From a virus (Duplodnaviria; Heunggongvirae; Uroviricota; Caudoviricetes), in IMG/VR virus record IMGVR_UViG_2721755497_000004: DNA of 47,379 bases. The stretch is one strand, 5' to 3'. Shown in pieces: positions 2,360 through 42,556 of the stretch. The position numbers and the translations under genes are program-made. Position 1 is the first letter of the stretch. Every line of letters starts with the position of its first letter. A model generated the notes under the pieces. It was given only the letters and a program-made list of their open reading frames with translations. It was not told the origin of the DNA and searched no databases.

Positions 2360-2688
2360 TAAAAATCGTGGTTTACAGGATTAAAAAGGTGCTATCCGGA
2401 ACCGGAATTCACACAGTGAACTGTGGGTGATCCAGATAATGAGCACTACCGTGATACAAATCACGGTGGTTTTTAACGGTTTTTGCGACACAGAACTTGC
2501 TCCTTATTACGGAGAGGCGCTAACCTGCCACTTGCTTAAGGTAGACGGTTCAGGGCCTCGGGTTAACATTGAAGTTGACTCGGGGCCTTTTCACATCAGG
2601 CCTTCAGGTGTTCCCTCCGGCCATCAGCCAAAGGCACCCGCGCATACTGTACGGTTTTATATCCTTCCGGCAATTCCGGTCATCATGT

Positions 2689-8595: not shown

Positions 8596-9759
8596 TCAGA
8601 ACTGATAAGTCATCCCAACAGCAACGATATTATCTGTCGCAATACCGGCTTTCTGGGTAAATTCGCTTTCATCAATCAGGTTAATTTTATAATCAACATA
8701 AGTGGACATATTTTTGTTAAAGTAATAAGTCGCACCGACATCAATATATTTAACCAGATCCTGGTCGCCATGGTTCACACCACCAACCATAACATCCTGT
8801 CCGCGGGACTGCAGATAAGCCAGAGATGGACGCAGGCCAAAATCGAACTGATACTGAGCAACCATTTCAAGGTTTTGTGCTTTATCCGCAACCCCGGTAT
8901 CACCAAAAGTGGTCATATTCTGGGTTTCGGAATAAATTGCAGCCAGATACAGATTGTTTGCATCATATTTAAGGCCAGTCCCCCACATCTCAGCATACTT
9001 ACCTTTTGCAACGCTGCCGGAATCAACGGACACTTCTTTTTCCGTCACATCCCCCGTTAAAGGATCTTTGACTTCAATAGTTTTGCTACCATTCAGGCCA
9101 TTAACCTGCTTACCTGTACGATCTGACTTAGTATACGCTGCCACAAAACCAAAACCATCAAACTCATAGCTGGCAGAGAAACCATATCCATCACCATTAG
9201 ACTTCTGGAGGTCATCTCGCTCATTTTTTCCCTGATACTGGGCTGCAAAGTTAAGACCATCCACCAGTCCGAAGAAATCTGTATTGCGGTAAGTCAGCAC
9301 TCCGGAAGTACGAGCAGTCATGAAGTTATCAGTCTGCGTCCAGCCATCGCCACCAAATTCTGGCAGAACGTCTGTATACGAACCGACATCATAAGCGATA
9401 CCATAATTACGCCCGTAATCAATGCTACCTAAATCAGCGAATTTCAAACCGGCAAATGCCAGACGGGTTTTATTGCCTGCCGTCCCTTCAGACTCGGCCT
9501 TATTACCTGAAAACTGATATTCCCAGTGACCAAAACCTGTCAGTTGATCATTGATCTGAGTCTCACCTTTAAAACCAAGACGTGCATAGGTCTTATCGCC
9601 ATCATCACCTTTATCGTCTGAGAAGTAATGGAGAGCAGTTACACGACCATAAAGATCCAGCTTATTACCATCTTTATTATAAACTTCTGCTGCCTGAGCC
9701 CCCGCAGCAAACATCACTGCCACTGCAACAGCAGAAAGTGCCACTGTCATTTTTTTCAT
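8596..9759 (-). CDS. OmpC/NmpC/Lc-family outer membrane porin (phage moron)
   Basis: 387-aa ORF with cleavable signal peptide (…[10 protein letters not shown]), enterobacterial general-porin motifs and C-terminal ...GMTYQF; flanked by AT-rich DNA; inserted between tail genes M and L. Confidence 0.9.
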
Positions 9760-23843: not shown

Positions 23844-24038
23844 ATGTCAACTAAGAATAGAACCCGCAGAACAACAACCCGCAACATCCGCTTTCCTAAC
23901 CAAATGATTGAACAAATCAACATCGCTCTTGATCAAAAAGGGTCCGGGAATTTCTCAGCCTGGGTCATTGAAGCCTGCCGTCGGAGACTAACGTCAGAAA
24001 AGAGAGCATATACATCAATCCAAAGTGATGATGAATGA
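23844..24038 (+). CDS. YlcI-like small basic protein (ribbon-helix-helix-like)
   Basis: 64-aa ORF, Arg/Thr-rich N-terminus then RNIRFPNQMIEQINIAL; located between cos and the lysis genes on the opposite strand. Confidence 0.5.
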   Translation: MSTKNRTRRTTTRNIRFPNQMIEQINIALDQKGSGNFSAWVIEACRRRLTSEKRAYTSIQSDDE

Positions 24039-24403
24039 ACATCCCGGTTTCTTCCACCATCGCACCGGAAAAGCGACTATGAGGGTAACCCTGCGTCTGT
24101 CAGCACAGTAAAACCCGGTATGCATCGCTTTTGATTATCTCCGCACACTCGTGCAGAGGAGTATCCCGTAATGGCTGCGGTCTCTGTTAATGCGGGAACA
24201 CGGCGACAATACAGCGCCAGTTATGGGTATGAAAATCCTCACCAGCGCAAAGCTATATCAACCTGTAGTGATGCAAAATTACCCGTAGCAAAAGGTATCT
24301 CCGCACATATGCAAGAACACAGCCTTAAAAACTCAGATGAAATAATGATTTGTTAAGATTTATATTATATGTTCGACATGGTACAACACTTAAGGGATGA
24401 AAT

Positions 24404-24946
24404 ATGAACAGATACTCTAAACTTCAAATTCAATTACATTGGCTGACTCTCGTATTAATAGCTATAGCCTGTGCTGCAATGGAACTTCGAGGTTTGTTTC
24501 CTAAAGGGTCTTCCTCCTATTTGCTTATGAGAGAAACACATTACAATGCTGGTATATTTATTCTTCTACTGATGATAATAAGAGTAATTATCAATAATAA
24601 ATATATAACACCAGCTATTACGCCGCCCCCACCTGCATGGCAAATGATATCAGCCAAATTCATGCAAACCCTGTTATACATATCTTTTTTGGTGTTACCA
24701 GTATCAGGACTTGCAATCATGGTTTTTGGAGGTAAAGCATGGAGCCTTCTGGGGATTGATATTCCCACTTTCGCTAACACCGACGGAGAAGTAAAATCCG
24801 TAGCCAAAACTATTCATGAATCACTTGCAAATATTGGTTATTTATTAATCACACTCCATGCTGGCGCTGCATTAATTCATCATTATATTCAGAAGGACAA
24901 TACACTTGTCAGAATGCTCCCTGAGCACCAGCATGATAAAAAGTGA
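24404..24946 (+). CDS. cytochrome b561 family protein (CybB-like, moron)
   Basis: 180-aa ORF with conserved b561 motifs (…YSKLQIQLHWL…, …HESLANIGYLLITLHAGAALIHHYIQKDNTLVRMLP), four predicted TM helices, AT-rich, RBS AAGGGA. Confidence 0.8.
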   Translation: MNRYSKLQIQLHWLTLVLIAIACAAMELRGLFPKGSSSYLLMRETHYNAGIFILLLMIIRVIINNKYITPAITPPPPAWQMISAKFMQTLLYISFLVLPVSGLAIMVFGGKAWSLLGIDIPTFANTDGEVKSVAKTIHESLANIGYLLITLHAGAALIHHYIQKDNTLVRMLPEHQHDKK

Positions 24947-26174: not shown

Positions 26175-26489
26175 ATGAACAGTAAAGAAAGTTTGCGCAG
26201 AAGATTTTTACAACTAATGACAGAAAACGTTAAATCAGAGTTACTTCTTCAGATGGCGGACAATAACGAAGTAACGAGCAGCATTCTTGCAGACCCTTAC
26301 GGTAAACTCTCACATAAAACGCTTGATATTATTACCACAACATTAACACCACTGATGCTTCAACGGCTGAAACATAATATCAACGCATGGGTTAATGAAG
26401 AATTAAGTCCTCCCTGCTTATGGGATTCTCGTTACGCATGTCAGCAAAAAATGCGAATTTTCAACTTACTATCACCAAAGCTCAGGTAG
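26175..26489 (+). CDS. hypothetical protein (opposite-strand moron between holin and endolysin)
   Basis: 104-aa AT-rich ORF with RBS TGAGG; occupies a 687-bp insertion separating S and R. Confidence 0.45.
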   Translation: MNSKESLRRRFLQLMTENVKSELLLQMADNNEVTSSILADPYGKLSHKTLDIITTTLTPLMLQRLKHNINAWVNEELSPPCLWDSRYACQQKMRIFNLLSPKLR

Positions 26490-26744: not shown

Positions 26745-26960
26745 CTACTCTCCCCGCGCCGCCTTACGACGGTCCTCTTTAATCTTGAAGTACAGGTTCG
26801 TCAGGTACGTTAACAGACCAAACAGCAGACTCCCCAGCACGCCTATTGCCGCCCACTGAGACGGGGATACCCTGTCCAGCAACTGCAGAAACCAGTATCC
26901 CGTCCCCACCGCAGACGTGGTGTATGACACACCTGTTGTGATTTTTTCCATCTGGTACAT
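26745..26960 (-). CDS. S: class II pinholin (phage 21 S type) with dual-start motif
   Basis: MYQMEK...[50 protein letters not shown]; Met1/Met4 dual start; RBS GGGAGG. Confidence 0.8.
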
Positions 26961-31587: not shown

Positions 31588-31665
31588 TGGACCGTCACCG
31601 GGGACTCGAACCCCGCATTTTCAACATAAAAAGGTTGATGCTCTTTCCTGATGAGCTAGTGACGG
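31588..31665 (-). tRNA. tRNA-like gene with 8-nt anticodon loop (possible unusual tRNA or pseudogene)
   Basis: 7-bp acceptor stem CCGTCAC/GTGACGG, encoded CCA, D arm GCTC/GAGC, T arm CGGGG-TTCGAGT-CCCCG, but anticodon arm TCAAC-CTTTTTAT-GTTGA has an 8-nt loop. Confidence 0.45.
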
Positions 31666-31667
31666 CA

Positions 31668-31742
31668 TGGTTGCCTTGCTGGATTTGAACCAGCGACCTG
31701 GCGATTATGAGTCTCTCGCTCTCACCACTGAGCTAAAGGGCC
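31668..31742 (-). tRNA. tRNA with CAU anticodon (Ile2/Met-like), acceptor and anticodon stems imperfect
   Basis: GGCCCTTTAGCTCAGTGG...CTCATAA...GCTGGTTCAAATCCAGC...CCA; D and T arms canonical; 3 terminal acceptor pairs and 2 anticodon-stem pairs mismatched; one nt short. Confidence 0.55.
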
Positions 31743-31782: not shown

Positions 31783-32841
31783 TCATCCCTTCTGGCTGAC
31801 TAAATCCTGAACTTCCCTGACCGTCTGCTCAAAACGCTCAGTATCCAGCTCAACGCCAATCGCACGACGCCCCAGTGCCAGCGCCGCTTTGACTGTCGAA
31901 CCCGACCCCATGAAGAAATCCGCAACCAGGTCACCCGGACGACTACTCGCTCTGATTATCTGCTGCAGCATTTCTGCCGGTTTTTCGCACGGATGTTTCC
32001 CGGGATAGAACTGCACCGGTTTATGCGTCCACACATCGGTATATGGCACCTGCGCCGTCACGCCAAAATACCGCCGCAGATGCTTATATTCACACTGCAG
32101 TTCCGCATACTGTCGGTTCAGTAAGGTATACGCGGCAACCAGCTGGTGGTGGGGTTTTTCCAGTTCACCGCGTTGATGCTTTTCTTCTGCCACCCGGGCA
32201 AACAACGCCTGTAATTTCAGATAATCGCGTTCATTCGGTAACTGCCACTGACTGGTACTGAACCAGTGCGACACCATGTTTTTCTTTCCTGTGGCATCAG
32301 CAATCTGTTTTGCCGTTATCCCCAGAGCGGCACGCGCATCACGAAAGTAAGATATCAGCGGGGCCATCACATGCTGTTTCAGTGCCCTGCCCTTCGCCTC
32401 ATAGCCATCATCTTTCGGGCGATACGGTCCCTGATAATGTTCCGCAAACAGAATGCGCTCTGTGGCCGGGAAATACGCACGCAGGCTTTCCTTGTTGCAC
32501 CCGTTCCAGCGTCCGGATGGCTTCGCCCAGATGATATGGTTCAGCACATTAAAGCGTTCACGCATCATGATTTCGATGTCGGATGCCAGGCGATGCCCAC
32601 AGAACAGGTAAATGCTTCCCTCGGGCTTTAATACCCGCCAGAAGTGCGCCAGACACTGGTCCAGCCACTTCAGGTAATCATCATCGCCATTCCACTGGTT
32701 ATCCCAGCCATTGGGTTTTACTTTAAAGTACGGCGGGTCCGTGACTATCAGATCGACAGAGTTTTCAGGTAAGGTCTGGATAAATTCCAGGCAGTCAGCG
32801 TTGATTAACTCACAACTGGATATTTTTACAGTATTAAGCAT
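31783..32841 (-). CDS. DNA N6-adenine (or N4-cytosine) methyltransferase, beta class
   Basis: 352-aa ORF with DPPY catalytic motif (LIVTDPPYF) and C-terminal SAM-binding FxGxG (DFFMGSGST). Confidence 0.85.
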   Translation of the reverse strand: MLNTVKISSCELINADCLEFIQTLPENSVDLIVTDPPYFKVKPNGWDNQWNGDDDYLKWLDQCLAHFWRVLKPEGSIYLFCGHRLASDIEIMMRERFNVLNHIIWAKPSGRWNGCNKESLRAYFPATERILFAEHYQGPYRPKDDGYEAKGRALKQHVMAPLISYFRDARAALGITAKQIADATGKKNMVSHWFSTSQWQLPNERDYLKLQALFARVAEEKHQRGELEKPHHQLVAAYTLLNRQYAELQCEYKHLRRYFGVTAQVPYTDVWTHKPVQFYPGKHPCEKPAEMLQQIIRASSRPGDLVADFFMGSGSTVKAALALGRRAIGVELDTERFEQTVREVQDLVSQKG

Positions 32842-36116: not shown

Positions 36117-36272
36117 TTACTCCTCAGGTTCGTAAGCTGTGAAGACAGCGACCTCCGTCTGGCCGGTTCGGATTCGTACCTCGCAGAGGTCTTTCCTCGT
36201 TACCAGTGCCGTCACTATGACGGTTAAACAGATGACGATCAGGGCGATTAACATCGCCTTTTGCTGCTTCAT
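36117..36272 (-). CDS. hokD: Hok-family type I toxin
   Basis: 51-aa MKQQKAMLIALIVICLTVIVTALVTRKDLCEVRIRTGQTEVAVFTAYEPEE, canonical Hok; nested in the longer mok-like frame starting at 36329. Confidence 0.85.
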   Translation of the reverse strand: MKQQKAMLIALIVICLTVIVTALVTRKDLCEVRIRTGQTEVAVFTAYEPEE

Positions 36273-36329
36273 AGCCTGCTTCTCCTTGCCTTTCGGCACG
36301 TAAGAGGCTAACCTAGATTTGCCGTTCAT
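36117..36329 (-). CDS. mok: Mok-like overlapping reading frame
   Basis: 70-aa frame (MNGKSRLASYVPKGKEKQA…) extending upstream of and in frame with hok. Confidence 0.45.
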   Translation of the reverse strand: MNGKSRLASYVPKGKEKQAMKQQKAMLIALIVICLTVIVTALVTRKDLCEVRIRTGQTEVAVFTAYEPEE

Positions 36330-36483
36330 AGATTGAGCCTCAGATTAATGTTAAGCGTCTTGCAGGACGCGTAATGTTAACTGGGGCTTTTCTCTATCTG
36401 CCTTTGGTGTTCATGCCTGAGACAGATAGCCTCAAGCACCCGCAGCCATTCTACTTAACTCCCGTTACCTCGCCAATATAAAA

Positions 36484-36573
36484 TCAATCAGAAAGGCGAT
36501 CCATAAGAACAACAGCAAGACAATAAATTGCCATTACAGCTGCAATAGCCAGCGCACATTTGAGAACCAGCAC
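36484..36573 (-). CDS. 29-codon hydrophobic small ORF with strong RBS (possible small membrane toxin-like peptide)
   Basis: AGGAGG then 5 nt then GTG CTG GTT CTC AAA TGT GCG...; peptide (M)LVLKCALAIAAVMAIYCLAVVLMDRLSD; not in ORF track (<60 aa). Confidence 0.35.
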   Translation of the reverse strand: MLVLKCALAIAAVMAIYCLAVVLMDRLSD

Positions 36574-37351
36574 GACAACCTCCTGTATTGGACGTACACC
36601 AGTCCTGATAAATATGAGGCTGTCTCATCATTGATGAGATACAACTATTGGGTATAGTTTCTGTGATTTTGTTCTGTAGAAATGGAACACAACAACCAGT
36701 CACCACCAGCACTTCTTTAAATACGCCAAGTCCGACGCAAGCTAACCTTCTAGTCCGCTTTGAGCGAAAAGCGGACATTCCTGTACAAAGCATGGCGTTG
36801 GAATACAGTAAGATCATTGATTAATAAGTGAGTCGAATCAGAACAGTAGCCAATGAAACAAAAAATTCGCAAACGTAACCAAGACTGGATATCAAGGCAA
36901 TTGAAACGTGCGCAAAAGAGGAAATGCCGTTAAGTTTCTTTATTAACTTTCCCTCAATATGAGCAACTGCTTGTAATGGTGTGCGCCTTAAACGGCATGG
37001 TCGTCTCAAGCCGGACTGGAGCCGCGCATTGTTTCATTAGGGTTGGGGAGAAGTGCCTATTGTTGGGCAAAAAGTAGTGTTTACTGGTTTGAGGGATTTG
37101 ATAAGGAGCAATTGCCTGTTGAATGGGGTGCGCTGTGGGAAGATGCCTGAATATATTGGTTTTGATTTGATCTCACAGTGCAACACACAATCAACTCTTA
37201 CAGTCTGCTGTGAGCAAAAATTGCACATTTCTAACAGCCTTCCGTGTGAATCAACGAGGAGCAGGTCACTGGCACAGAGGGGACGTTTAACCCCGTCCGG
37301 CCTCCGCTGAATTGGCTGCCAATTCCGTCCGGTCGTACCTGCCTGAGCCGT

Positions 37352-37576
37352 CTACTTCAGTAAAAACTGAATCAGCATAGCAAACATATATACTGTCGCT
37401 GCAATTTGTATTGTTCGCACTCCCCATCTGAGATATCGCCATTTATGACGTTCTCTGGCATCGGCTTCTTCAATGGTGGATTCAGTATGCTTTCTTCTCT
37501 TTGTCCTGAATGGATCAATTACCCATAGGGCAAGAATAAAGAGAACGATTGTTTTCTGAAGTATGGGATGATCCAC
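37352..37576 (-). CDS. hypothetical small membrane protein
   Basis: 74-aa ORF with two hydrophobic segments, GTG start. Confidence 0.3.
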   Translation of the reverse strand: MDHPILQKTIVLFILALWVIDPFRTKRRKHTESTIEEADARERHKWRYLRWGVRTIQIAATVYMFAMLIQFLLK

Positions 37577-37820
37577 GAAGAGTGACTCCGGCCTGCTCGC
37601 TGATACAATCAGAATAGATGAACAATCCCGAAATAATCAATACTAAATGTATGGCAATTATTTATTTTCGTCCTGGCTGGACTTTGTGACCTGCTCCCAA
37701 CAAATTAACATAGCACAATGTAAGCAAGTTCTGCTTTTGGCACAAAGCGGACAACCACGCTAGCTCTACCCTGTGCCACAAAATGTCAATTTGCATCTGA
37801 ACTAATGCACTTTAATCTCG

Positions 37821-38283: not shown

Positions 38284-39369
38284 TTACCCCCTGAAGCCCG
38301 GCGGAATTTCGTTATCCGGTTCAGAAATATGATTCACACAACGCTGGTTGTTCGTGCCGCTTACCGGGAGCAACCAGTGGTTCTCAAAATTCCGGTCCGG
38401 TCCAAAAAACGTCGTCGCTCGCTGAACAAATTCCGTTCCCGTTTTCCCGGTAGCCGCCAAGTATCTTGCGTAACGCCTCACGCCATCCAGCATGGCCTCT
38501 GGTGGCACCCCCTCGCGTAATCTGGCCTTCCAGGCACTGAAAGCGGATTTCTTCGGGTTTGCCCCGGCACGCAACGGGTATTCCCGCCAGACCTGTTCGA
38601 ACACATCCGGATAATCCACTCGTCCCACAGGCTGCCCGGTGTTTTCCGGGACTACCTGATCGGCTTCCCGCTGAATGGCGGAATCGGCTTCAGGCTGCTG
38701 CAGTTGGTGTGATTGTTCCGGCCTTGCGGTCATCGCCTGCTGCACAGCGCCCGAATCGGCTTCCGGTGTCGTGCCTGCTGGCTGACCTGGATTGACGTTC
38801 TGAACATCCACTGCCTGGTTCGTGGCGATTTTTTCGCCATGAAGCATAGTATTTTTATCCTGATCCTGTTCTTTCTCCTGTTCCTGTTCTTGGCTTAGAA
38901 GCCCCTTTAAAGCCTCTTCGAAGCCCCTTGCTGAATTCCGGCGATTATTCCGCCTCACATCCAGATGGAAATCCGTTTTATATCTGTCGTAAAAGGCTGA
39001 CAGAAAGGCGTTTTCAGGTAATGATGCATACTCATTCCTGACACCTGCACAACGGTTATCTCCAGGCTTCAACGTTTCCCCAACCTGCCAGGCTGCCATT
39101 TCATGGACCCAGACCATCTCGGCATCATGGTCATAGCTACAAAAACCAGCTTCAACAGCCCTTTTAAGCCCCTTCGAAGCCCCTTCCGGACCAAGCCCGG
39201 TTTCATGAGCAAGGTACAAAACTGGCAGGTAATACAAACCCAACATATTTGCGTGAGGGGATGTCATCAGGTAAAAAGCAACAACTTGCGCTTCTGCACC
39301 CGCCTTTCTAAGTTCTCTCCCCGTTTCTCCCAGCCAGAATCGCGGGGAAACTTTTGCATAATCACGCAT
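38284..39369 (-). CDS. putative phage replication protein (YdaU-like)
   Basis: ~361 aa from the MRDYAKVSPRFWLGE Met (RBS GAGGTGA); lies downstream of the cro-like gene where O/P-type replication genes sit; Gln/Glu-rich linker. Confidence 0.45.
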   Translation of the reverse strand: MRDYAKVSPRFWLGETGRELRKAGAEAQVVAFYLMTSPHANMLGLYYLPVLYLAHETGLGPEGASKGLKRAVEAGFCSYDHDAEMVWVHEMAAWQVGETLKPGDNRCAGVRNEYASLPENAFLSAFYDRYKTDFHLDVRRNNRRNSARGFEEALKGLLSQEQEQEKEQDQDKNTMLHGEKIATNQAVDVQNVNPGQPAGTTPEADSGAVQQAMTARPEQSHQLQQPEADSAIQREADQVVPENTGQPVGRVDYPDVFEQVWREYPLRAGANPKKSAFSAWKARLREGVPPEAMLDGVRRYARYLAATGKTGTEFVQRATTFFGPDRNFENHWLLPVSGTNNQRCVNHISEPDNEIPPGFRG

Positions 39370-39448
39370 GTTCACCTCGTCTGGAGCCAAACCTTCCTCT
39401 GGTTATAATCTGTGATTCACCAATCAACAGAACCAGAGGAGGTTCGAC

Positions 39449-39844
39449 ATGGATTTTGCAACTATCACAAGTAGCGTTGTGTTGAGTGCGTGTGTTGCAG
39501 GCGTGGTTTCGCTGGTTAATGGTGCCTGGCAACGCAAATCGGAACGAACCATTGAAGCGCAACGCCGGGCTGCTGAAGCCAGAGCAAAAATAAGAGAAAT
39601 GGCTCTCACCCTCGCATTGAAAGAATGGGAGCTCCACCAAACCATATCGAAGGCAAAGGGGTATGGTGTCAGCGGCCCAGAAGTTTACGTCTTTCGATAC
39701 TTTCGTATGCTCAACCTGATGGAGGAAGACAAATTCACGATTGAAAATCTCAGACTGATCCAGTACGACTCCATGTGTGCTGTTGCAGCAATTCAGGCAG
39801 AGATCGAGCGATATCGGGAGAAAAACGGCCTCCCGATGCCATAA
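39449..39844 (+). CDS. hypothetical membrane-anchored coiled-coil protein (counter-oriented moron)
   Basis: 131-aa ORF with RBS GAGGAGG; N-terminal TM then charged helical region; opposite orientation inside the early-right operon. Confidence 0.5.
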   Translation: MDFATITSSVVLSACVAGVVSLVNGAWQRKSERTIEAQRRAAEARAKIREMALTLALKEWELHQTISKAKGYGVSGPEVYVFRYFRMLNLMEEDKFTIENLRLIQYDSMCAVAAIQAEIERYREKNGLPMP

Positions 39845-39848
39845 ACAA

Positions 39849-40070
39849 TCAGCGTTTTTCATATTTCCAAATCCTCATATCAGGCTTGCGCCCAATGAAC
39901 CGACGAAGACAATTTAAAGTCCATCGGGTGAAGTAATCCCTGAAACCAAAGAGATACCAGGTGAACAGATTCACGATAAAATGTCCGGCCAGAGCCCCAC
40001 CAATACCACAGGCAAGAACAGTAAAAAAATCAGGTAGATTCACAGCCCCCTCCGTCATTGTTAACGCCAT
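39849..40070 (-). CDS. hypothetical small membrane protein
   Basis: 73-aa ORF with ATG start and a hydrophobic core. Confidence 0.35.
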   Translation of the reverse strand: MALTMTEGAVNLPDFFTVLACGIGGALAGHFIVNLFTWYLFGFRDYFTRWTLNCLRRFIGRKPDMRIWKYEKR

Positions 40071-40078
40071 CCGTGCTT

Positions 40079-40504
40079 CTAGTGCATCACCACGGCATTT
40101 CCTGCCGGGCCACCACGGTTCATCTGATTGAAACCGGCAATCGCCACTGCGACAAAATCATCAGCGTCTCTCACCAGTCGTTCCCGCGTCTCCACCAGCT
40201 CCCGAAAATAGGCTGAACTGTGGCTGCGCATTCGGGCCACCAGCAAAGGTGGCATTGCCTTTTCGATCGCTGGTAACAACGCCTGAATTTTTTCAACAGC
40301 ATCAGGGGTGTCTTTCTCTACCCAGCGGAAAATTTTCTGGGTATTACGAGCTAGGGCTTCCGGATGGCTGTCGCCGTACAGTTCCGGAAATGTCATTCCC
40401 AGTTCAAAATACGCTTTGGTAATCTTCGCAGTTGGTACTTTCTCGCCATCCGGATGCGCCCAGGCATTCATCGCCATGCGGATGTGCTCATGGCTGATTT
40501 TCAT
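40079..40504 (-). CDS. ydaT: YdaT-like protein
   Basis: 141-aa ORF MKISHEHIRMAM..., directly downstream of and overlapping ydaS as in the Rac prophage. Confidence 0.55.
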   Translation of the reverse strand: MKISHEHIRMAMNAWAHPDGEKVPTAKITKAYFELGMTFPELYGDSHPEALARNTQKIFRWVEKDTPDAVEKIQALLPAIEKAMPPLLVARMRSHSSAYFRELVETRERLVRDADDFVAVAIAGFNQMNRGGPAGNAVVMH

Positions 40505-40811
40505 GAATCATTTGCCTCTTGATATTTCGGGTATGCTCGTTTTCGTCATTTGGTTGCTTCATCAACATATTCAGCGAATAGCATGACGAGCGTCGTAAGT
40601 ATGACCAGTCAACATCAGGACGAAGTTCTTCGCACAGAACACCACCTCTTGTTGCACGTTCAATTGCTGGACATCGCTCAGCAGGCAACTGACGTACACC
40701 TTTGATCCATTGATTTACGCTTGGAGGTGATACACCTAAAAGCCTAGCCATTGCAGATTGCCCACCGACAACAGCACACGCTCGTTTGAATGAATAGTTC
40801 TCTTTTTTCAT
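40488..40811 (-). CDS. ydaS: Cro-like HTH regulator YdaS
   Basis: MKKENYSFKRACAVVGGQSAMARLLGVSPPSVNQWIKGVRQLPAERCPAIERATRG..., HTH Cro/CI type; divergent from the repressor. Confidence 0.7.
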   Translation of the reverse strand: MKKENYSFKRACAVVGGQSAMARLLGVSPPSVNQWIKGVRQLPAERCPAIERATRGGVLCEELRPDVDWSYLRRSSCYSLNMLMKQPNDENEHTRNIKRQMIHENQP

Positions 40812-40842
40812 CGAATGAACTCCAAAAAAACACGAAACAATA

Positions 40843-40908
40843 TTAGGCGACGCCTAATGCAAATGTCAATAGGCGTCGCCTAACACAAATGAAGTAGGGA
40901 TTGCCTAA
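40843..40908. promoter_or_regulatory. operator region: palindromic TTAGGCGACGCCTAA sites between ydaS and racR
   Basis: Two near-perfect 15-bp palindromes (40843-40857, 40869-40883) and a third degenerate half-site (40895-40908). Confidence 0.5.
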
Positions 40909-40936: not shown

Positions 40937-41413
40937 ATGCTTAGTGGTAAAGACTTAGGCCGAGCGATAGAGCAGGCCATTAACAAAAAAATTGCATCAG
41001 GATCCGTCAAATCAAAGGCGGAGGTAGCGCGTCACTTCAAAGTCCAACCACCATCAATCTATGATTGGATTAAGAAAGGTTCGATAAGTAAAGATAAACT
41101 TCCAGAGCTATGGCGTTTCTTTTCTGATGTGGTTGGCCCAGAGCATTGGGGGCTTAACGAATACCCCATACCAACCTCCCTCATTTCAGATACAAAAAGT
41201 GAACTTTTAGACATAAACAGCCTTTATCAAGCCGCCTCTGATGAAAAAAGAGCCATTGTGGCTTTTCTCTTATCAGAAAATGCCACGGAACCTAGTTGGG
41301 TTGATCATGACGTTCGCGCCTACATTGCCACAATGGAGATGAAGGTAGGTAAGTATTTGAAAGATCGAGAATCAGAACGGAAAAGCCAGAACATCACCAA
41401 AACGGGAACTTAA
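40937..41413 (+). CDS. racR: prophage repressor (RacR-like)
   Basis: 158-aa ORF, RBS AGGAGAG, N-terminal HTH (…SKAEVARHFKVQPPSIYDWIKKG…), divergently transcribed from ydaS. Confidence 0.65.
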   Translation: MLSGKDLGRAIEQAINKKIASGSVKSKAEVARHFKVQPPSIYDWIKKGSISKDKLPELWRFFSDVVGPEHWGLNEYPIPTSLISDTKSELLDINSLYQAASDEKRAIVAFLLSENATEPSWVDHDVRAYIATMEMKVGKYLKDRESERKSQNITKTGT

Positions 41414-41998: not shown

Positions 41999-42556
41999 CT
42001 ACAGATTGCCGTTCAGTTTTCTGGCCAACTCCTCAATAGATGGAGGCGATACATAATCCGGATTTTTATTCATAAGAAACTGATTTTCACAGTAGAGGCA
42101 CCTGCTTTTATGAAAAAACTCATATTCTCTAACCGGGAATGGTTGAAGTATCGATACTATCTTTTGTCCAAAACATTTTGGACAAAGATGCATGATTATG
42201 CTGCCGCCGTTCACGGTTACCTCCTTCGAGTACACAAAAGTTCCCGACTCAAGTTGGTTAAGGATATAACCTTCCGTCTGAGCCTCAAAGTTTTCAAATT
42301 CTGCAATTTTAGCTTTGAGAGAAGCATTTATTTCTTGATAAGTGCCCACCAGCTCAACGAGAGACACGCATTCGCGCTGAATAGATGCAAGCTTTGAGTT
42401 CAGTTCACCAATAGCCGCATTTACTTCAGCTTGAGTTTTTGCCTCGTTCATTAGTTTTGCAATCTGAGCGGTTTCACGAATAGCCGTCATTGCTGCCGTT
42501 AATTCAGCGATCACATTCAATACTCTTATTGTTGTTGGGGATATCCAGATTAACAA
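41999..42556 (-). CDS. hypothetical coiled-coil protein with C-terminal zinc-ribbon (CPKC...CLYC)
   Basis: 185-aa AT-rich ORF counter-oriented within the leftward early region next to the repressor; exact start uncertain. Confidence 0.5.
   Translation of the reverse strand: MLIWISPTTIRVLNVIAELTAAMTAIRETAQIAKLMNEAKTQAEVNAAIGELNSKLASIQRECVSLVELVGTYQEINASLKAKIAEFENFEAQTEGYILNQLESGTFVYSKEVTVNGGSIIMHLCPKCFGQKIVSILQPFPVREYEFFHKSRCLYCENQFLMNKNPDYVSPPSIEELARKLNGNL

What the first reader, a model, noticed from the sequence alone, without database searches (positions are those of the whole stretch)
39449..40070. Counter-oriented membrane protein gene inside the early-right operon
A 131-aa ORF with a strong RBS (GAGGAGG), an N-terminal TM anchor and a charged coiled region is encoded on the plus strand between the ydaT-like and replication genes. 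It converges on a 73-aa minus-strand membrane ORF. Its position and orientation suggest moron cargo such as superinfection exclusion or membrane-associated defence.
Basis: inference. Interest (0 to 1): 0.45.

Follow-up and report, generated by a model that had tools for sequence, protein, structure and literature searches.

The report
Known anti-lambda defence gene PD-λ-6

Summary
The 131-aa ORF at 39449-39844 (+) is a real gene. Its dN/dS is 0.03-0.05 against diverged copies. It matches the PADLOC model PD-Lambda-6 over its full length (E=9e-90). PD-λ-6 is a single-gene system that Vassallo et al. 2022 selected on λvir. They validated it from its native promoter and found no effect on adsorption.

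I add the following:
- The protein is an N-out/C-in membrane-anchored three-helix protein, not a lipoprotein as later papers say.
- It travels as a ~665-bp cassette (39382-40046) with its own conserved promoter and leader.
- It is counter-oriented to the phage operon in all 10 contexts seen.
- The convergent small ORF is real but is better read as 64 aa from GTG 40043. It lay inside the published clone. It also occurs next to a different cargo gene, so it is not a PD-λ-6-specific partner.
- An unconserved antisense ORF (39862-39362) links the small ORF to the replication gene by overlapping stop and start codons. It may keep the PR transcript translated across the moron. This is suggestive only.

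The mechanism is unknown. I favour Abi-type action at the inner membrane (about 0.45).

The parts
39449..39844 (+). PD-λ-6 defence gene. The product is 131 aa: an N-terminal TM anchor at about residues 3-26, then a cytoplasmic three-helix domain.
   Evidence: PADLOC PD-Lambda-6 E=9.2e-90, full length. phrog_36733 E=1.4e-91. dN/dS 0.03-0.05. AF2 pLDDT 83.7. Charge flanks fit N-out/C-in.
39382..39448 (+). Portable promoter and 5' leader of the cassette. It contains the box TGGAGCCAAACCTTCC (39382-39397, -35-like), -10 TATAAT (39404-39409), hairpin 1 (39410-39430) and hairpin 2 GAACC-AGAGGA-GGTTC (39430-45), which holds the SD GAGGAGG (39436-42).
   Evidence: The leader is conserved in all contexts. 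It also precedes the unrelated ECs1072 cargo and a 35%-identical homologue. Hairpin stems change compensatorily: CTGTGATT/AATCAACAG versus CTTGGTT/AACCAAG, and GAACC/GGTTC versus GAATC/GATTC. The promoter assignment is inferred. The generic scan did not call it because the -35 is weak.
39849..40043 (-). It has a glycine-zipper TM (LACGIGGALAGHF) and a basic C-terminal tail. It is co-oriented with the phage operon.
   Evidence: RefSeq WP_149026041.1. It is conserved 4 nt from PD-λ-6 in every locus with a copy at least 87% identical, except in frameshifted E. albertii copies. dN/dS is 0.08-0.22. AF2 gives one long helix 3-50. It also occurs without PD-λ-6, next to a different cargo gene.
39362..39862 (-). 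Antisense 'bridging' ORF on the operon strand (166 aa, product not conserved). Its ATG overlaps the end of orf64. Its TGA overlaps the replication gene's ATG (ATGCGTGA).
   Evidence: The frame is open in all early-operon contexts, and its stop lies within -8 to +13 nt of the next start in most of them. It is broken in the late-operon and remnant copies. Its product identity (0.52-0.68 between lineages) is below the nucleotide identity (0.79-0.86). Without it, 479 nt of C-rich RNA would be untranslated. Function is hypothetical.
40079..40504 (-). YdaT-family gene, the upstream neighbour in the PR operon.
   Evidence: Pfam PF06254 E=7e-10; RefSeq annotation.
40488..40811 (-). YdaS/Cro-type gene, the first gene of the PR operon.
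   Evidence: Pfam YdaS_toxin E=4e-30 and P22_Cro E=1e-8.
40840..40869 (-). PR-like sigma-70 promoter (TTGACA-18-TAATAT). Its transcripts must cross PD-λ-6 antisense to reach the replication gene.
   Evidence: Promoter scan, 10 of 12 matches. That transcripts read through is inferred from gene order.
38284..39369 (-). Replication-type 'DNA-binding protein' gene, the downstream neighbour in the PR operon.
   Evidence: RefSeq start at 39369. There is a weak C-terminal DnaT-like match.

Best explanation
The ORF is PD-λ-6, a prophage-borne single-gene anti-λ defence.

Shown:
- It is a real, strongly constrained gene with a full-length PD-Lambda-6 HMM match.
- The published system protects E. coli K-12 from λvir without changing adsorption.

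Inferred from sequence:
- The protein is anchored in the inner membrane by one N-terminal helix, N-out and C-in.
- That helix is rich in small residues (a glycine-zipper-like S/A/G pattern).
- An enzyme-motif-free three-helix domain of about 100 aa, with the conserved EW..H and RY positions, faces the cytoplasm.
- The gene is expressed in the lysogen from its own weak promoter, behind an SD-sequestering hairpin.
- It sits backwards in the phage's lytic operon, so PR transcription runs antisense across it when the prophage is induced and should damp it.

Mechanism I commit to (about 0.45): abortive-infection-type action. The cytoplasmic domain recognises a cue made by an infecting λ-type phage after DNA entry. 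The TM helices then self-associate and compromise the membrane or otherwise arrest the cell, which aborts the burst. The counter-orientation spares the resident prophage's own lytic cycle.

Confidence by part: identity about 0.97, topology about 0.8, Abi mode about 0.45.
For: Identity:
- PADLOC match 1-131 of 131, E=9.2e-90.
- Same gene length and 'hypothetical' single gene in Vassallo Table S1/S2.
- Their HHpred places TM hits at residues 6-40.
- Validation and the adsorption statement come from their text.

Real gene: dN/dS 0.03-0.05.

Topology:
- 22 of 23 family members have an N-terminal TM.
- The N-flank is 3-15 residues. 20 of those 22 lack K/R there, and none has a positive net charge.
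- The C-flank carries 2-5 K/R.

Own promoter and leader, conserved beyond the coding sequence.

Counter-orientation in 10 of 10 contexts, seven carrying close copies and three carrying 35-38% homologues.

Abi prior from the paper's text:
- 9 of the 21 systems give direct immunity.
- 7 of those 9 are among the 11 DNase-like systems.
- So 8 of the 10 non-DNase systems, the group PD-λ-6 belongs to, behave as Abi.

Precedent: silencing of a prophage defence by life-cycle-coupled antisense transcription is documented for Tha/Ith (PMC11087260).
Against: - I could not read Fig. 3a or Extended Data Fig. 3 of the paper, so PD-λ-6's own MOI behaviour is unknown to me.
- No trigger, no toxicity data and no pore evidence exist.
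- Small prophage membrane proteins are just as often entry blockers.
- The counter-orientation could simply insulate expression.
- The E. albertii copies, which sit in a decayed prophage, show relaxed constraint (dN/dS 0.11-0.15). Some are C-terminally frameshifted (P0006). Long-term host benefit without the phage is therefore not evident.
Confidence: 0.45

Rival explanations
1. Superinfection exclusion at the inner membrane. PD-λ-6 blocks passage or establishment of incoming λ DNA after adsorption, for example by interfering with the ManYZ-dependent entry step, in the manner of HK97 gp15, P22 SieA or T4 Imm. Infected cells survive.
For: The protein is membrane-anchored, made by the prophage, and selected on λvir with normal adsorption. 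The resident prophage has λ-type tail genes, gpJ among them, so excluding related heteroimmune phages would pay. There is no enzymatic motif.
Against: The conserved domain is predicted to be cytoplasmic, away from the periplasmic injection machinery. Only 2 of the 10 non-DNase systems in the source paper gave direct immunity. An entry blocker would not need to be shut off during the prophage's own lytic cycle, yet all 10 contexts are counter-oriented.
Confidence: 0.25
2. PD-λ-6 is really a two-gene system. The convergent 64-aa membrane protein would be either an obligate partner or a lytic-phase antagonist, expressed from PR, that neutralises PD-λ-6 by TM-TM binding when the prophage is induced (Tha/Ith logic).
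For: - orf64 lies 4 nt from PD-λ-6 in every locus with a close copy, across seven different flanking contexts.
- It is under purifying selection.
- It is always co-oriented with the phage operon and has no conserved promoter of its own, because cassette homology ends at its start codon.
- The published clone spanned about 257 nt on each side, so by inference it contained orf64.
- There is a precedent in Tha/Ith.
Against: - An orf64 homologue 78-82% identical occurs without PD-λ-6, after NinE and next to an unrelated counter-oriented ~600-aa gene.
- Homologues of PD-λ-6 at 35-38% identity lack orf64.
- In E. albertii orf64 is frameshifted while PD-λ-6 is still open.
- No interaction test was possible.
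Confidence: 0.15
3. PD-λ-6 is a lipoprotein, as later papers state, cleaved at LSA|C15 and acting in the periplasm.
For: Residues 12-15 (LSAC) fit a lipobox pattern. The source paper lists 'a lipoprotein' among its novel features, and two later papers attach that label to PD-Lambda-6.
Against: - There is no positively charged n-region; the protein starts MDFA with net charge -1.
- Hydrophobicity continues past Cys15 to residue 26 and is followed by QRKSER.
- The Cys is absent in the 45%-identical homologue, and 19 of 23 family members have no Cys in the N-terminal region or TM.
- The paper's only supporting hit is PF06305 LapA_dom, printed truncated as 'Lipopo'. That name expands to lipopolysaccharide assembly protein A, not lipoprotein.
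Confidence: 0.04
4. The plus-strand ORF is not the gene. The 166-aa ORF on the operon strand (39862-39362) would be the real protein-coding gene.
For: That frame is open in most diverged copies, has an ATG with an SD-like GAGGA 9 nt upstream, and is co-oriented with the operon.
Against: Between lineages its product is 52-68% identical where the DNA is 79-86% identical and PD-λ-6 is 89-97% identical. Most variable columns fall on its first codon position. The plus-strand protein has HMM-detectable homologues down to about 20% identity.
Confidence: 0.01

Closest known systems
PD-λ-6 (PD-Lambda-6; PADLOC PDLC04020; Vassallo et al. 2022, Nat Microbiol, PMC9519451)
   Same: The HMM match is full length. 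The gene length, N-terminal TM region, single 'hypothetical' gene status and E. coli lambdoid-prophage origin all agree. The window's exact protein is the commonest allele (WP_000344866.1, seen on at least 1000 contigs).
   Different: Nothing detectable. I could not retrieve RRK48647.1 itself to show residue-for-residue identity.
Tha/Ith noncontiguous operon of S. aureus prophages (Rostøl et al. 2024, PMC11087260)
   Same: The logic is the same. A prophage defence gene and a small opposite-strand gene are arranged so that lysogenic and lytic transcription are mutually antisense, which switches immunity off on induction.
   Different: There is no homology. Tha is a soluble HEPN RNase in the cI operon, and the small antisense gene Ith carries the promoter of its own. 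Here the defence gene is the counter-oriented one. An inhibitory role for orf64 is untested, and its occurrence with other cargo weakens it.
P22/λ SieB with Esc and sas antisense RNA (from memory: Ranade & Poteete 1993)
   Same: A small prophage-expressed inner-membrane protein aborts superinfecting lambdoid phages, and self-sparing is tied to antisense RNA.
   Different: There is no Pfam SieB hit. SieB is larger, lies in the PL operon and is co-oriented with it.
HK97 gp15, P22 SieA and T4 Imm, the entry-blocking superinfection exclusion proteins (from memory)
   Same: They are small inner-membrane proteins made by (pro)phages that act after adsorption.
   Different: There is no sequence or fold similarity. 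The conserved domain here is predicted to be cytoplasmic, and an entry block has not been shown.
ECs1072 family phage-associated protein (NCBIfam NF033230)
   Same: It occupies the same slot between ydaT and the replication gene, in the same orientation. It sits behind the same 67-nt leader and the same ATG in related Rac-like prophages.
   Different: The 151-aa protein is unrelated, has no TM and has no orf64 next to it. Its function is unknown.

Membership tests
PD-λ-6 (PADLOC/DefenseFinder single-gene system) | Full-length match to the PD-Lambda-6 profile HMM | tested here: met
   PDLC04020, E=9.2e-90, 295.6 bits, residues 1-131 on profile 1-131 of 131.
PD-λ-6 (PADLOC/DefenseFinder single-gene system) | Same gene as the validated clone: a single ~131-aa hypothetical protein with an N-terminal TM, from an E. 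coli lambdoid prophage | tested here: met
   Table S2 gives gene 426209-426605. Table S3 puts HHpred TM hits at residues 6-40, with other hits reaching residue 127. The window ORF is 396 nt with a TM at residues 3-26. Exact identity to RRK48647.1 could not be checked.
PD-λ-6 (PADLOC/DefenseFinder single-gene system) | Reduces plating of λvir without reducing adsorption | not testable with these tools
   Reported for the published clone. This needs a plaque assay with this allele.
Bacterial lipoproteins | Signal peptide with a basic n-region, an h-region and a conserved lipobox Cys | tested here: not met
   LSAC is present, but the n-region has no K/R. Hydrophobicity continues after the Cys, and the Cys is not conserved in 19 of 23 relatives.
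Holins (Pfam Phage_holin_2_x and others) | Significant profile match and position in a lysis cassette | tested here: not met
   The window protein has no Pfam hit at E<=0.01. One of 23 relatives hits Phage_holin_2_4, only at E=0.0012. The gene is in the early region, whereas the prophage's holin is at 26745-26960.
Known superinfection-exclusion families (SieB, Imm, Cor and others in Pfam, PHROGs, PADLOC) | Profile match to an annotated Sie family | tested here: not met
   The only matches are phrog_36733 (function unknown) and PD-Lambda-6.
Moron (Juhala/Hendrix sense: an autonomous cargo gene with its own promoter inside a phage operon) | Presence or absence polymorphism between related phages at the same junction, and its own expression signals | tested here: met
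   The cassette is in 17 of 5426 complete E. coli genomes, while the flanks are in more than 2200. The slot holds ECs1072 in others. The leader and promoter-like box are conserved. Promoter activity itself is inferred.
Toxin-antitoxin pair (PD-λ-6 with orf64) | Obligate co-occurrence of the two genes | tested here: not met
   orf64 occurs with a different cargo. PD-λ-6 homologues occur without orf64. In E. albertii orf64 is frameshifted while PD-λ-6 stays open.

The most novel reading that the evidence does not exclude
The cassette is a self-regulating 'backwards moron', and the operon strand has been shaped to tolerate it.

- PR transcription silences the defence gene by antisense collision on induction.
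- An ORF with no conserved product (39862-39362) is translationally chained from orf64 to the replication gene. This would keep 479 nt of C-rich antisense RNA covered by ribosomes, so that Rho does not terminate the early operon inside the moron.
- orf64 and the 67-nt leader would be the reusable end-pieces between which cargo is swapped (PD-λ-6, ECs1072, a 600-aa protein).
Probability: 0.25. Interest if true: 0.55.

Novelty: already known. Interest (0 to 1): 0.27.

Why it matters
For the scan, this is a validation case. A reader working from sequence alone flagged a gene that an unbiased functional screen had already shown to be an anti-phage defence, so the flag was sound and the gene can be labelled PD-λ-6.

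For the field, PD-λ-6 still has no mechanism, and this analysis gives experiments something concrete to test:
- The likely topology is N-out/C-in, and the 'lipoprotein' label is probably wrong.
- The published clone also carried a conserved second membrane ORF.
- The gene is always backwards in phage operons and sits behind a portable leader.
- The opposite strand may be kept translatable so the phage's early operon can read through its own defence gene. If that last point holds, it would be a general rule for how operons accommodate counter-oriented cargo.

Tried and rejected
Searches that found nothing useful:
- Pfam, NCBIfam and PHROGs on both ORFs gave nothing informative. PHROGs returned only phrog_36733 for PD-λ-6, function unknown, and nothing for the small ORF.
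- tblastn against 50,697 GenBank phage records found no match.
- The plasmid collection had no cassette.
- A profile against PDB sequences found nothing with E<0.1.
- Rfam on 39200-40200 had no hit.
- RNAalifold on the leader recovered only the invariant SD hairpin. The covariation was seen only by eye and by folding each sequence separately.
- The full-text search for follow-up work found only three papers that name PD-Lambda-6, none of them mechanistic.

Family size:
- Exhaustive HMMER found 27 representatives at 50% clustering among 1.84 billion proteins.
- The indexed search found 8 clusters at 90% among 5.8 billion.
- A scan of GTDB species representatives found only E. albertii.

Ideas considered and rejected:
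- Lipoprotein: rejected.
- The antisense ORF as the real gene: rejected.
- orf64 as a specific partner or a TA pair: weakened by its occurrence with other cargo.
- A sigma-54 reading of the upstream box (TGGTGCC-N-TTCC): considered by eye and dropped because the -12 GC is absent.

Not possible with these tools:
- Co-folding PD-λ-6 with orf64 could not be attempted; structure prediction folds one protein at a time and accepts only window or search-derived sequences.

Full report
**What is there.**
- The window is a complete lambdoid prophage of E. coli, identical to strain M3, NZ_CP010183.1 33257-80635. It runs from the tail fibres to the integrase.
- Its immunity region is Rac-like. A RacR-type repressor gene lies at 40937-41413 (+). 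A PR-like promoter lies at 40869-40840 (-). Downstream of PR, on the minus strand, come ydaS/cro, ydaT, a small ORF, the replication-type gene (38284-39369) and DUF977.
- The flagged ORF, 39449-39844 (+), sits backwards in this operon. Its RBS is GAGGAGG, 6 nt before the ATG. It has a hydrophobic N-terminus and a charged helical continuation.
- RefSeq calls it WP_000344866.1, 'hypothetical protein'.

**It is a real gene.**
- Diverged copies exist in Salmonella, Citrobacter, Trabulsiella, E. albertii and metagenomes. Against them, dN/dS is 0.03-0.05 at dS of about 0.8-2, and variable columns fall 35/19/97 on codon positions 1/2/3.
- The convergent small ORF is also real, with dN/dS 0.08-0.22. 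Its conserved reading starts at GTG 40043 and gives 64 aa, as in RefSeq, not at the ATG at 40070.

**It is already known.**
- The protein matches the PADLOC model PD-Lambda-6 over all 131 positions, E=9.2e-90.
- Vassallo et al. 2022 (PMC9519451) selected PD-λ-6 on λvir from E. coli UMB6655. It is a single 'hypothetical' gene at 426209-426605 on RRUL01000001.
- They cloned 425952-426863 with the native promoter on a low-copy vector. They state that every validated system lowered EOP for its selecting phage and did not affect adsorption.
- Their HHpred gave only TM-type hits at residues 6-40.
- Only three other papers in the library mention it, and none is mechanistic.

**The protein.**
- The family is very small: 8 clusters at 90% identity among 5.8 billion proteins, and 27 representatives at 50% among 1.84 billion. 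All scanned members hit phrog_36733, function unknown.
- Members are 100-150 aa. They share one N-terminal TM helix, a basic juxtamembrane QR.xE motif, and a helical domain with conserved A..AL.EW..H, P..VY and RY positions.
- The N-flank is short and lacks K/R in nearly all members. The C-flank has 2-5 K/R. By the positive-inside rule this means N-out/C-in, with the conserved domain in the cytoplasm.
- The AF2 model (pLDDT 83.7) has helices 3-70, 77-92 and 98-125. Fold searches return nothing specific.
- The 'lipoprotein' label used by later papers is not supported. LSAC15 resembles a lipobox, but there is no basic n-region, hydrophobicity runs on past the Cys, and the Cys is missing in most relatives.
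- The label may stem from the truncated HHpred title 'LapA_dom; Lipopo…', which expands to lipopolysaccharide assembly protein A. This is my inference.

**The cassette.**
- Homology between otherwise unrelated prophage backgrounds spans window 39382-40046. That covers a 67-nt leader, PD-λ-6, a 4-nt spacer and orf64 up to its start codon.
- I saw this pair in seven flanking contexts:
  - after ydaT with two different replication modules (window, L003);
  - after cro in Citrobacter and in metagenomes (L008, L027);
  - after cro in Salmonella (L023);
  - after a pRha gene (L052);
  - between the capsid and FI genes in Trabulsiella (L011);
  - in a decayed prophage next to icd in E. albertii, where orf64 is frameshifted (L004).
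- In all of them, and in three 35-38% homologues (L038-L040), PD-λ-6 points against the surrounding operon. Wherever orf64 is present it points with the operon.
- The cassette is rare, in 17 of 5426 complete E. coli genomes. The flanks occur in more than 2200 genomes, and many of those carry the unrelated ECs1072 gene in the same slot.

**The leader.**
- The leader is more conserved than the protein. It contains the box TGG(T/A)GCC(G/A)AACCTTCC, then 17 nt later TATAAT or GATATT, then two hairpins. The second hairpin holds the SD.
- Both stems show compensatory changes between lineages.
- The same leader, and the same ATG, precede ECs1072 in SE11-type prophages and the 35% homologue in L038.
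- I read it as a portable promoter and 5'UTR. That reading is inferred.

**orf64 is not a dedicated partner.**
- A homologue 78-82% identical lies after NinE in other E. coli prophages. It is again co-oriented with the operon and is followed by a different counter-oriented cargo, an AT-rich ~600-aa protein with no family match.
- orf64 therefore looks like a boundary gene of counter-oriented cargo slots.
- By inference from the invariant local arrangement, the published PD-λ-6 clone contained it. Its contribution to the phenotype is therefore untested.

**Mechanism.**
- Nothing is published.
- From the paper's text, 9 of 21 systems give direct immunity and 7 of those are among the 11 DNase-like systems. 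So 8 of the 10 remaining systems, a group that includes PD-λ-6, behave as Abi.
- Three further points fit that reading: the cytoplasmic domain, the small-residue TM and the invariable counter-orientation. The last would let lytic transcription silence a gene that is harmful to the phage's own growth, as in Tha/Ith.
- I favour an Abi-type membrane effector at about 0.45 and an entry block at about 0.25.

**An unexpected feature on the other strand.**
- An ORF at 39862-39362 (-) runs antisense through the whole moron. Its ATG overlaps the end of orf64, with GAGGA 9 nt upstream. Its TGA overlaps the replication gene's ATG (ATGCGTGA).
- The same geometry recurs with different downstream genes: TGA-7 nt-ATG, ATGAATGA, ATGA and TGA-13 nt-ATG. 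It recurs in the 35% homologue as well.
- Its product is not conserved.
- The frame is broken in the Trabulsiella late-operon copy, in the E. albertii remnant and in L039/L040.
- Without it, 479 nt of RNA would lie untranslated between orf64 and the replication gene, with C/G up to 2.25 in 78-nt windows. With it, the gaps along the operon are -17, 35, -14 and -8 nt.
- Rho is known to terminate untranslated antisense RNA (abstracts of PMC11551753 and PMC5909445). A translated bridge would therefore make sense.
- The statistics are only suggestive:
  - P(open frame) is 0.02-0.06 per lineage under synonymous recoding.
  - Empirically it is 0.19 in other genes of the window.
  - The 4/4 versus 0/4 split gives Fisher p=0.014.
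- I found no paper describing this.

**Verdict.** The gene is the known PD-λ-6, so interest is low (0.27). The architectural observations are leads, not findings.

Noticed in passing
window 39362-39862 (-); also L003, L008, L023, L027, L038, L052: An ORF with no conserved product runs antisense through the whole PD-λ-6 gene. It is chained by overlapping stop and start codons from orf64 to the replication gene. It stays open in the early-operon contexts and is broken in the late-operon and remnant copies. It may be a translated bridge that prevents Rho polarity across a backwards moron.
   Followed up: partly
window 39382-39448; L002 3083-3151; L038 3896-3964: The 67-nt promoter/leader has two hairpins with compensatory changes. 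It is shared by PD-λ-6, the unrelated ECs1072 cargo and a 35%-identical homologue. It is more conserved than the coding sequences. There is no Rfam match.
   Followed up: partly
L051 497-2299 (-); L049, L050, L048 (STEC411): An orf64 homologue lies after NinE and is followed by a counter-oriented, AT-rich ~600-aa protein. That protein has no Pfam, NCBIfam or PADLOC match and is pseudogenised in two of the loci. It is another cargo of unknown function in an orf64-bounded slot.
   Followed up: partly
literature (PMC9519451 Table S3; PMC11381338; bioRxiv 10.1101/2024.10.26.620412): PD-λ-6 is called a lipoprotein in later papers. The only support in the source tables is an HHpred hit printed as 'LapA_dom ; Lipopo', which stands for lipopolysaccharide assembly protein A. 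Sequence evidence argues against lipidation.
   Followed up: yes
window 40236-40253 (+): The only terminator-like hairpin on the plus strand downstream of PD-λ-6 lies inside ydaT. The PD-λ-6 transcript may therefore run antisense over orf64 and the 3' part of ydaT in lysogens.
   Followed up: no
window 8596-9759 (-): An OmpC-type porin gene is embedded among the tail genes, between minor tail protein L and a tail protein. It is prophage cargo that could alter the receptor landscape.
   Followed up: no
window 23844-24946 (+) and 26217-26489 (+): Further counter-oriented cargo lies between the terminase and lysis genes: YlcI/YnfO, a hypothetical gene, a cytochrome b and another hypothetical gene. 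None of those scanned has a PADLOC hit.
   Followed up: partly
window 36273-37820: About 1.5 kb between hokD and DUF977 has no annotated gene, only short ORFs. I did not examine it.
   Followed up: no
window 41999-42514 (-): A 171-aa hypothetical protein with CxxC…CxxC motifs is counter-oriented in the early-left region, next to DUF1391 and dicB. It has no PADLOC hit.
   Followed up: partly
window 2381-2491 (-), 36117-36272 (-), 31588-31742 (-), 31783-32841 (-): The same prophage carries two Hok/Gef-type toxin genes, tRNA-Lys and tRNA-Ile genes, and an orphan type II DNA methyltransferase (PADLOC MTase_II, E=1.5e-161).
   Followed up: partly
L004-L007, L031 (E. albertii): PD-λ-6 survives in a decayed prophage next to icd under relaxed constraint (dN/dS 0.11-0.15). 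orf64 is frameshifted there, and the type strain has a C-terminal frameshift in PD-λ-6.
   Followed up: partly
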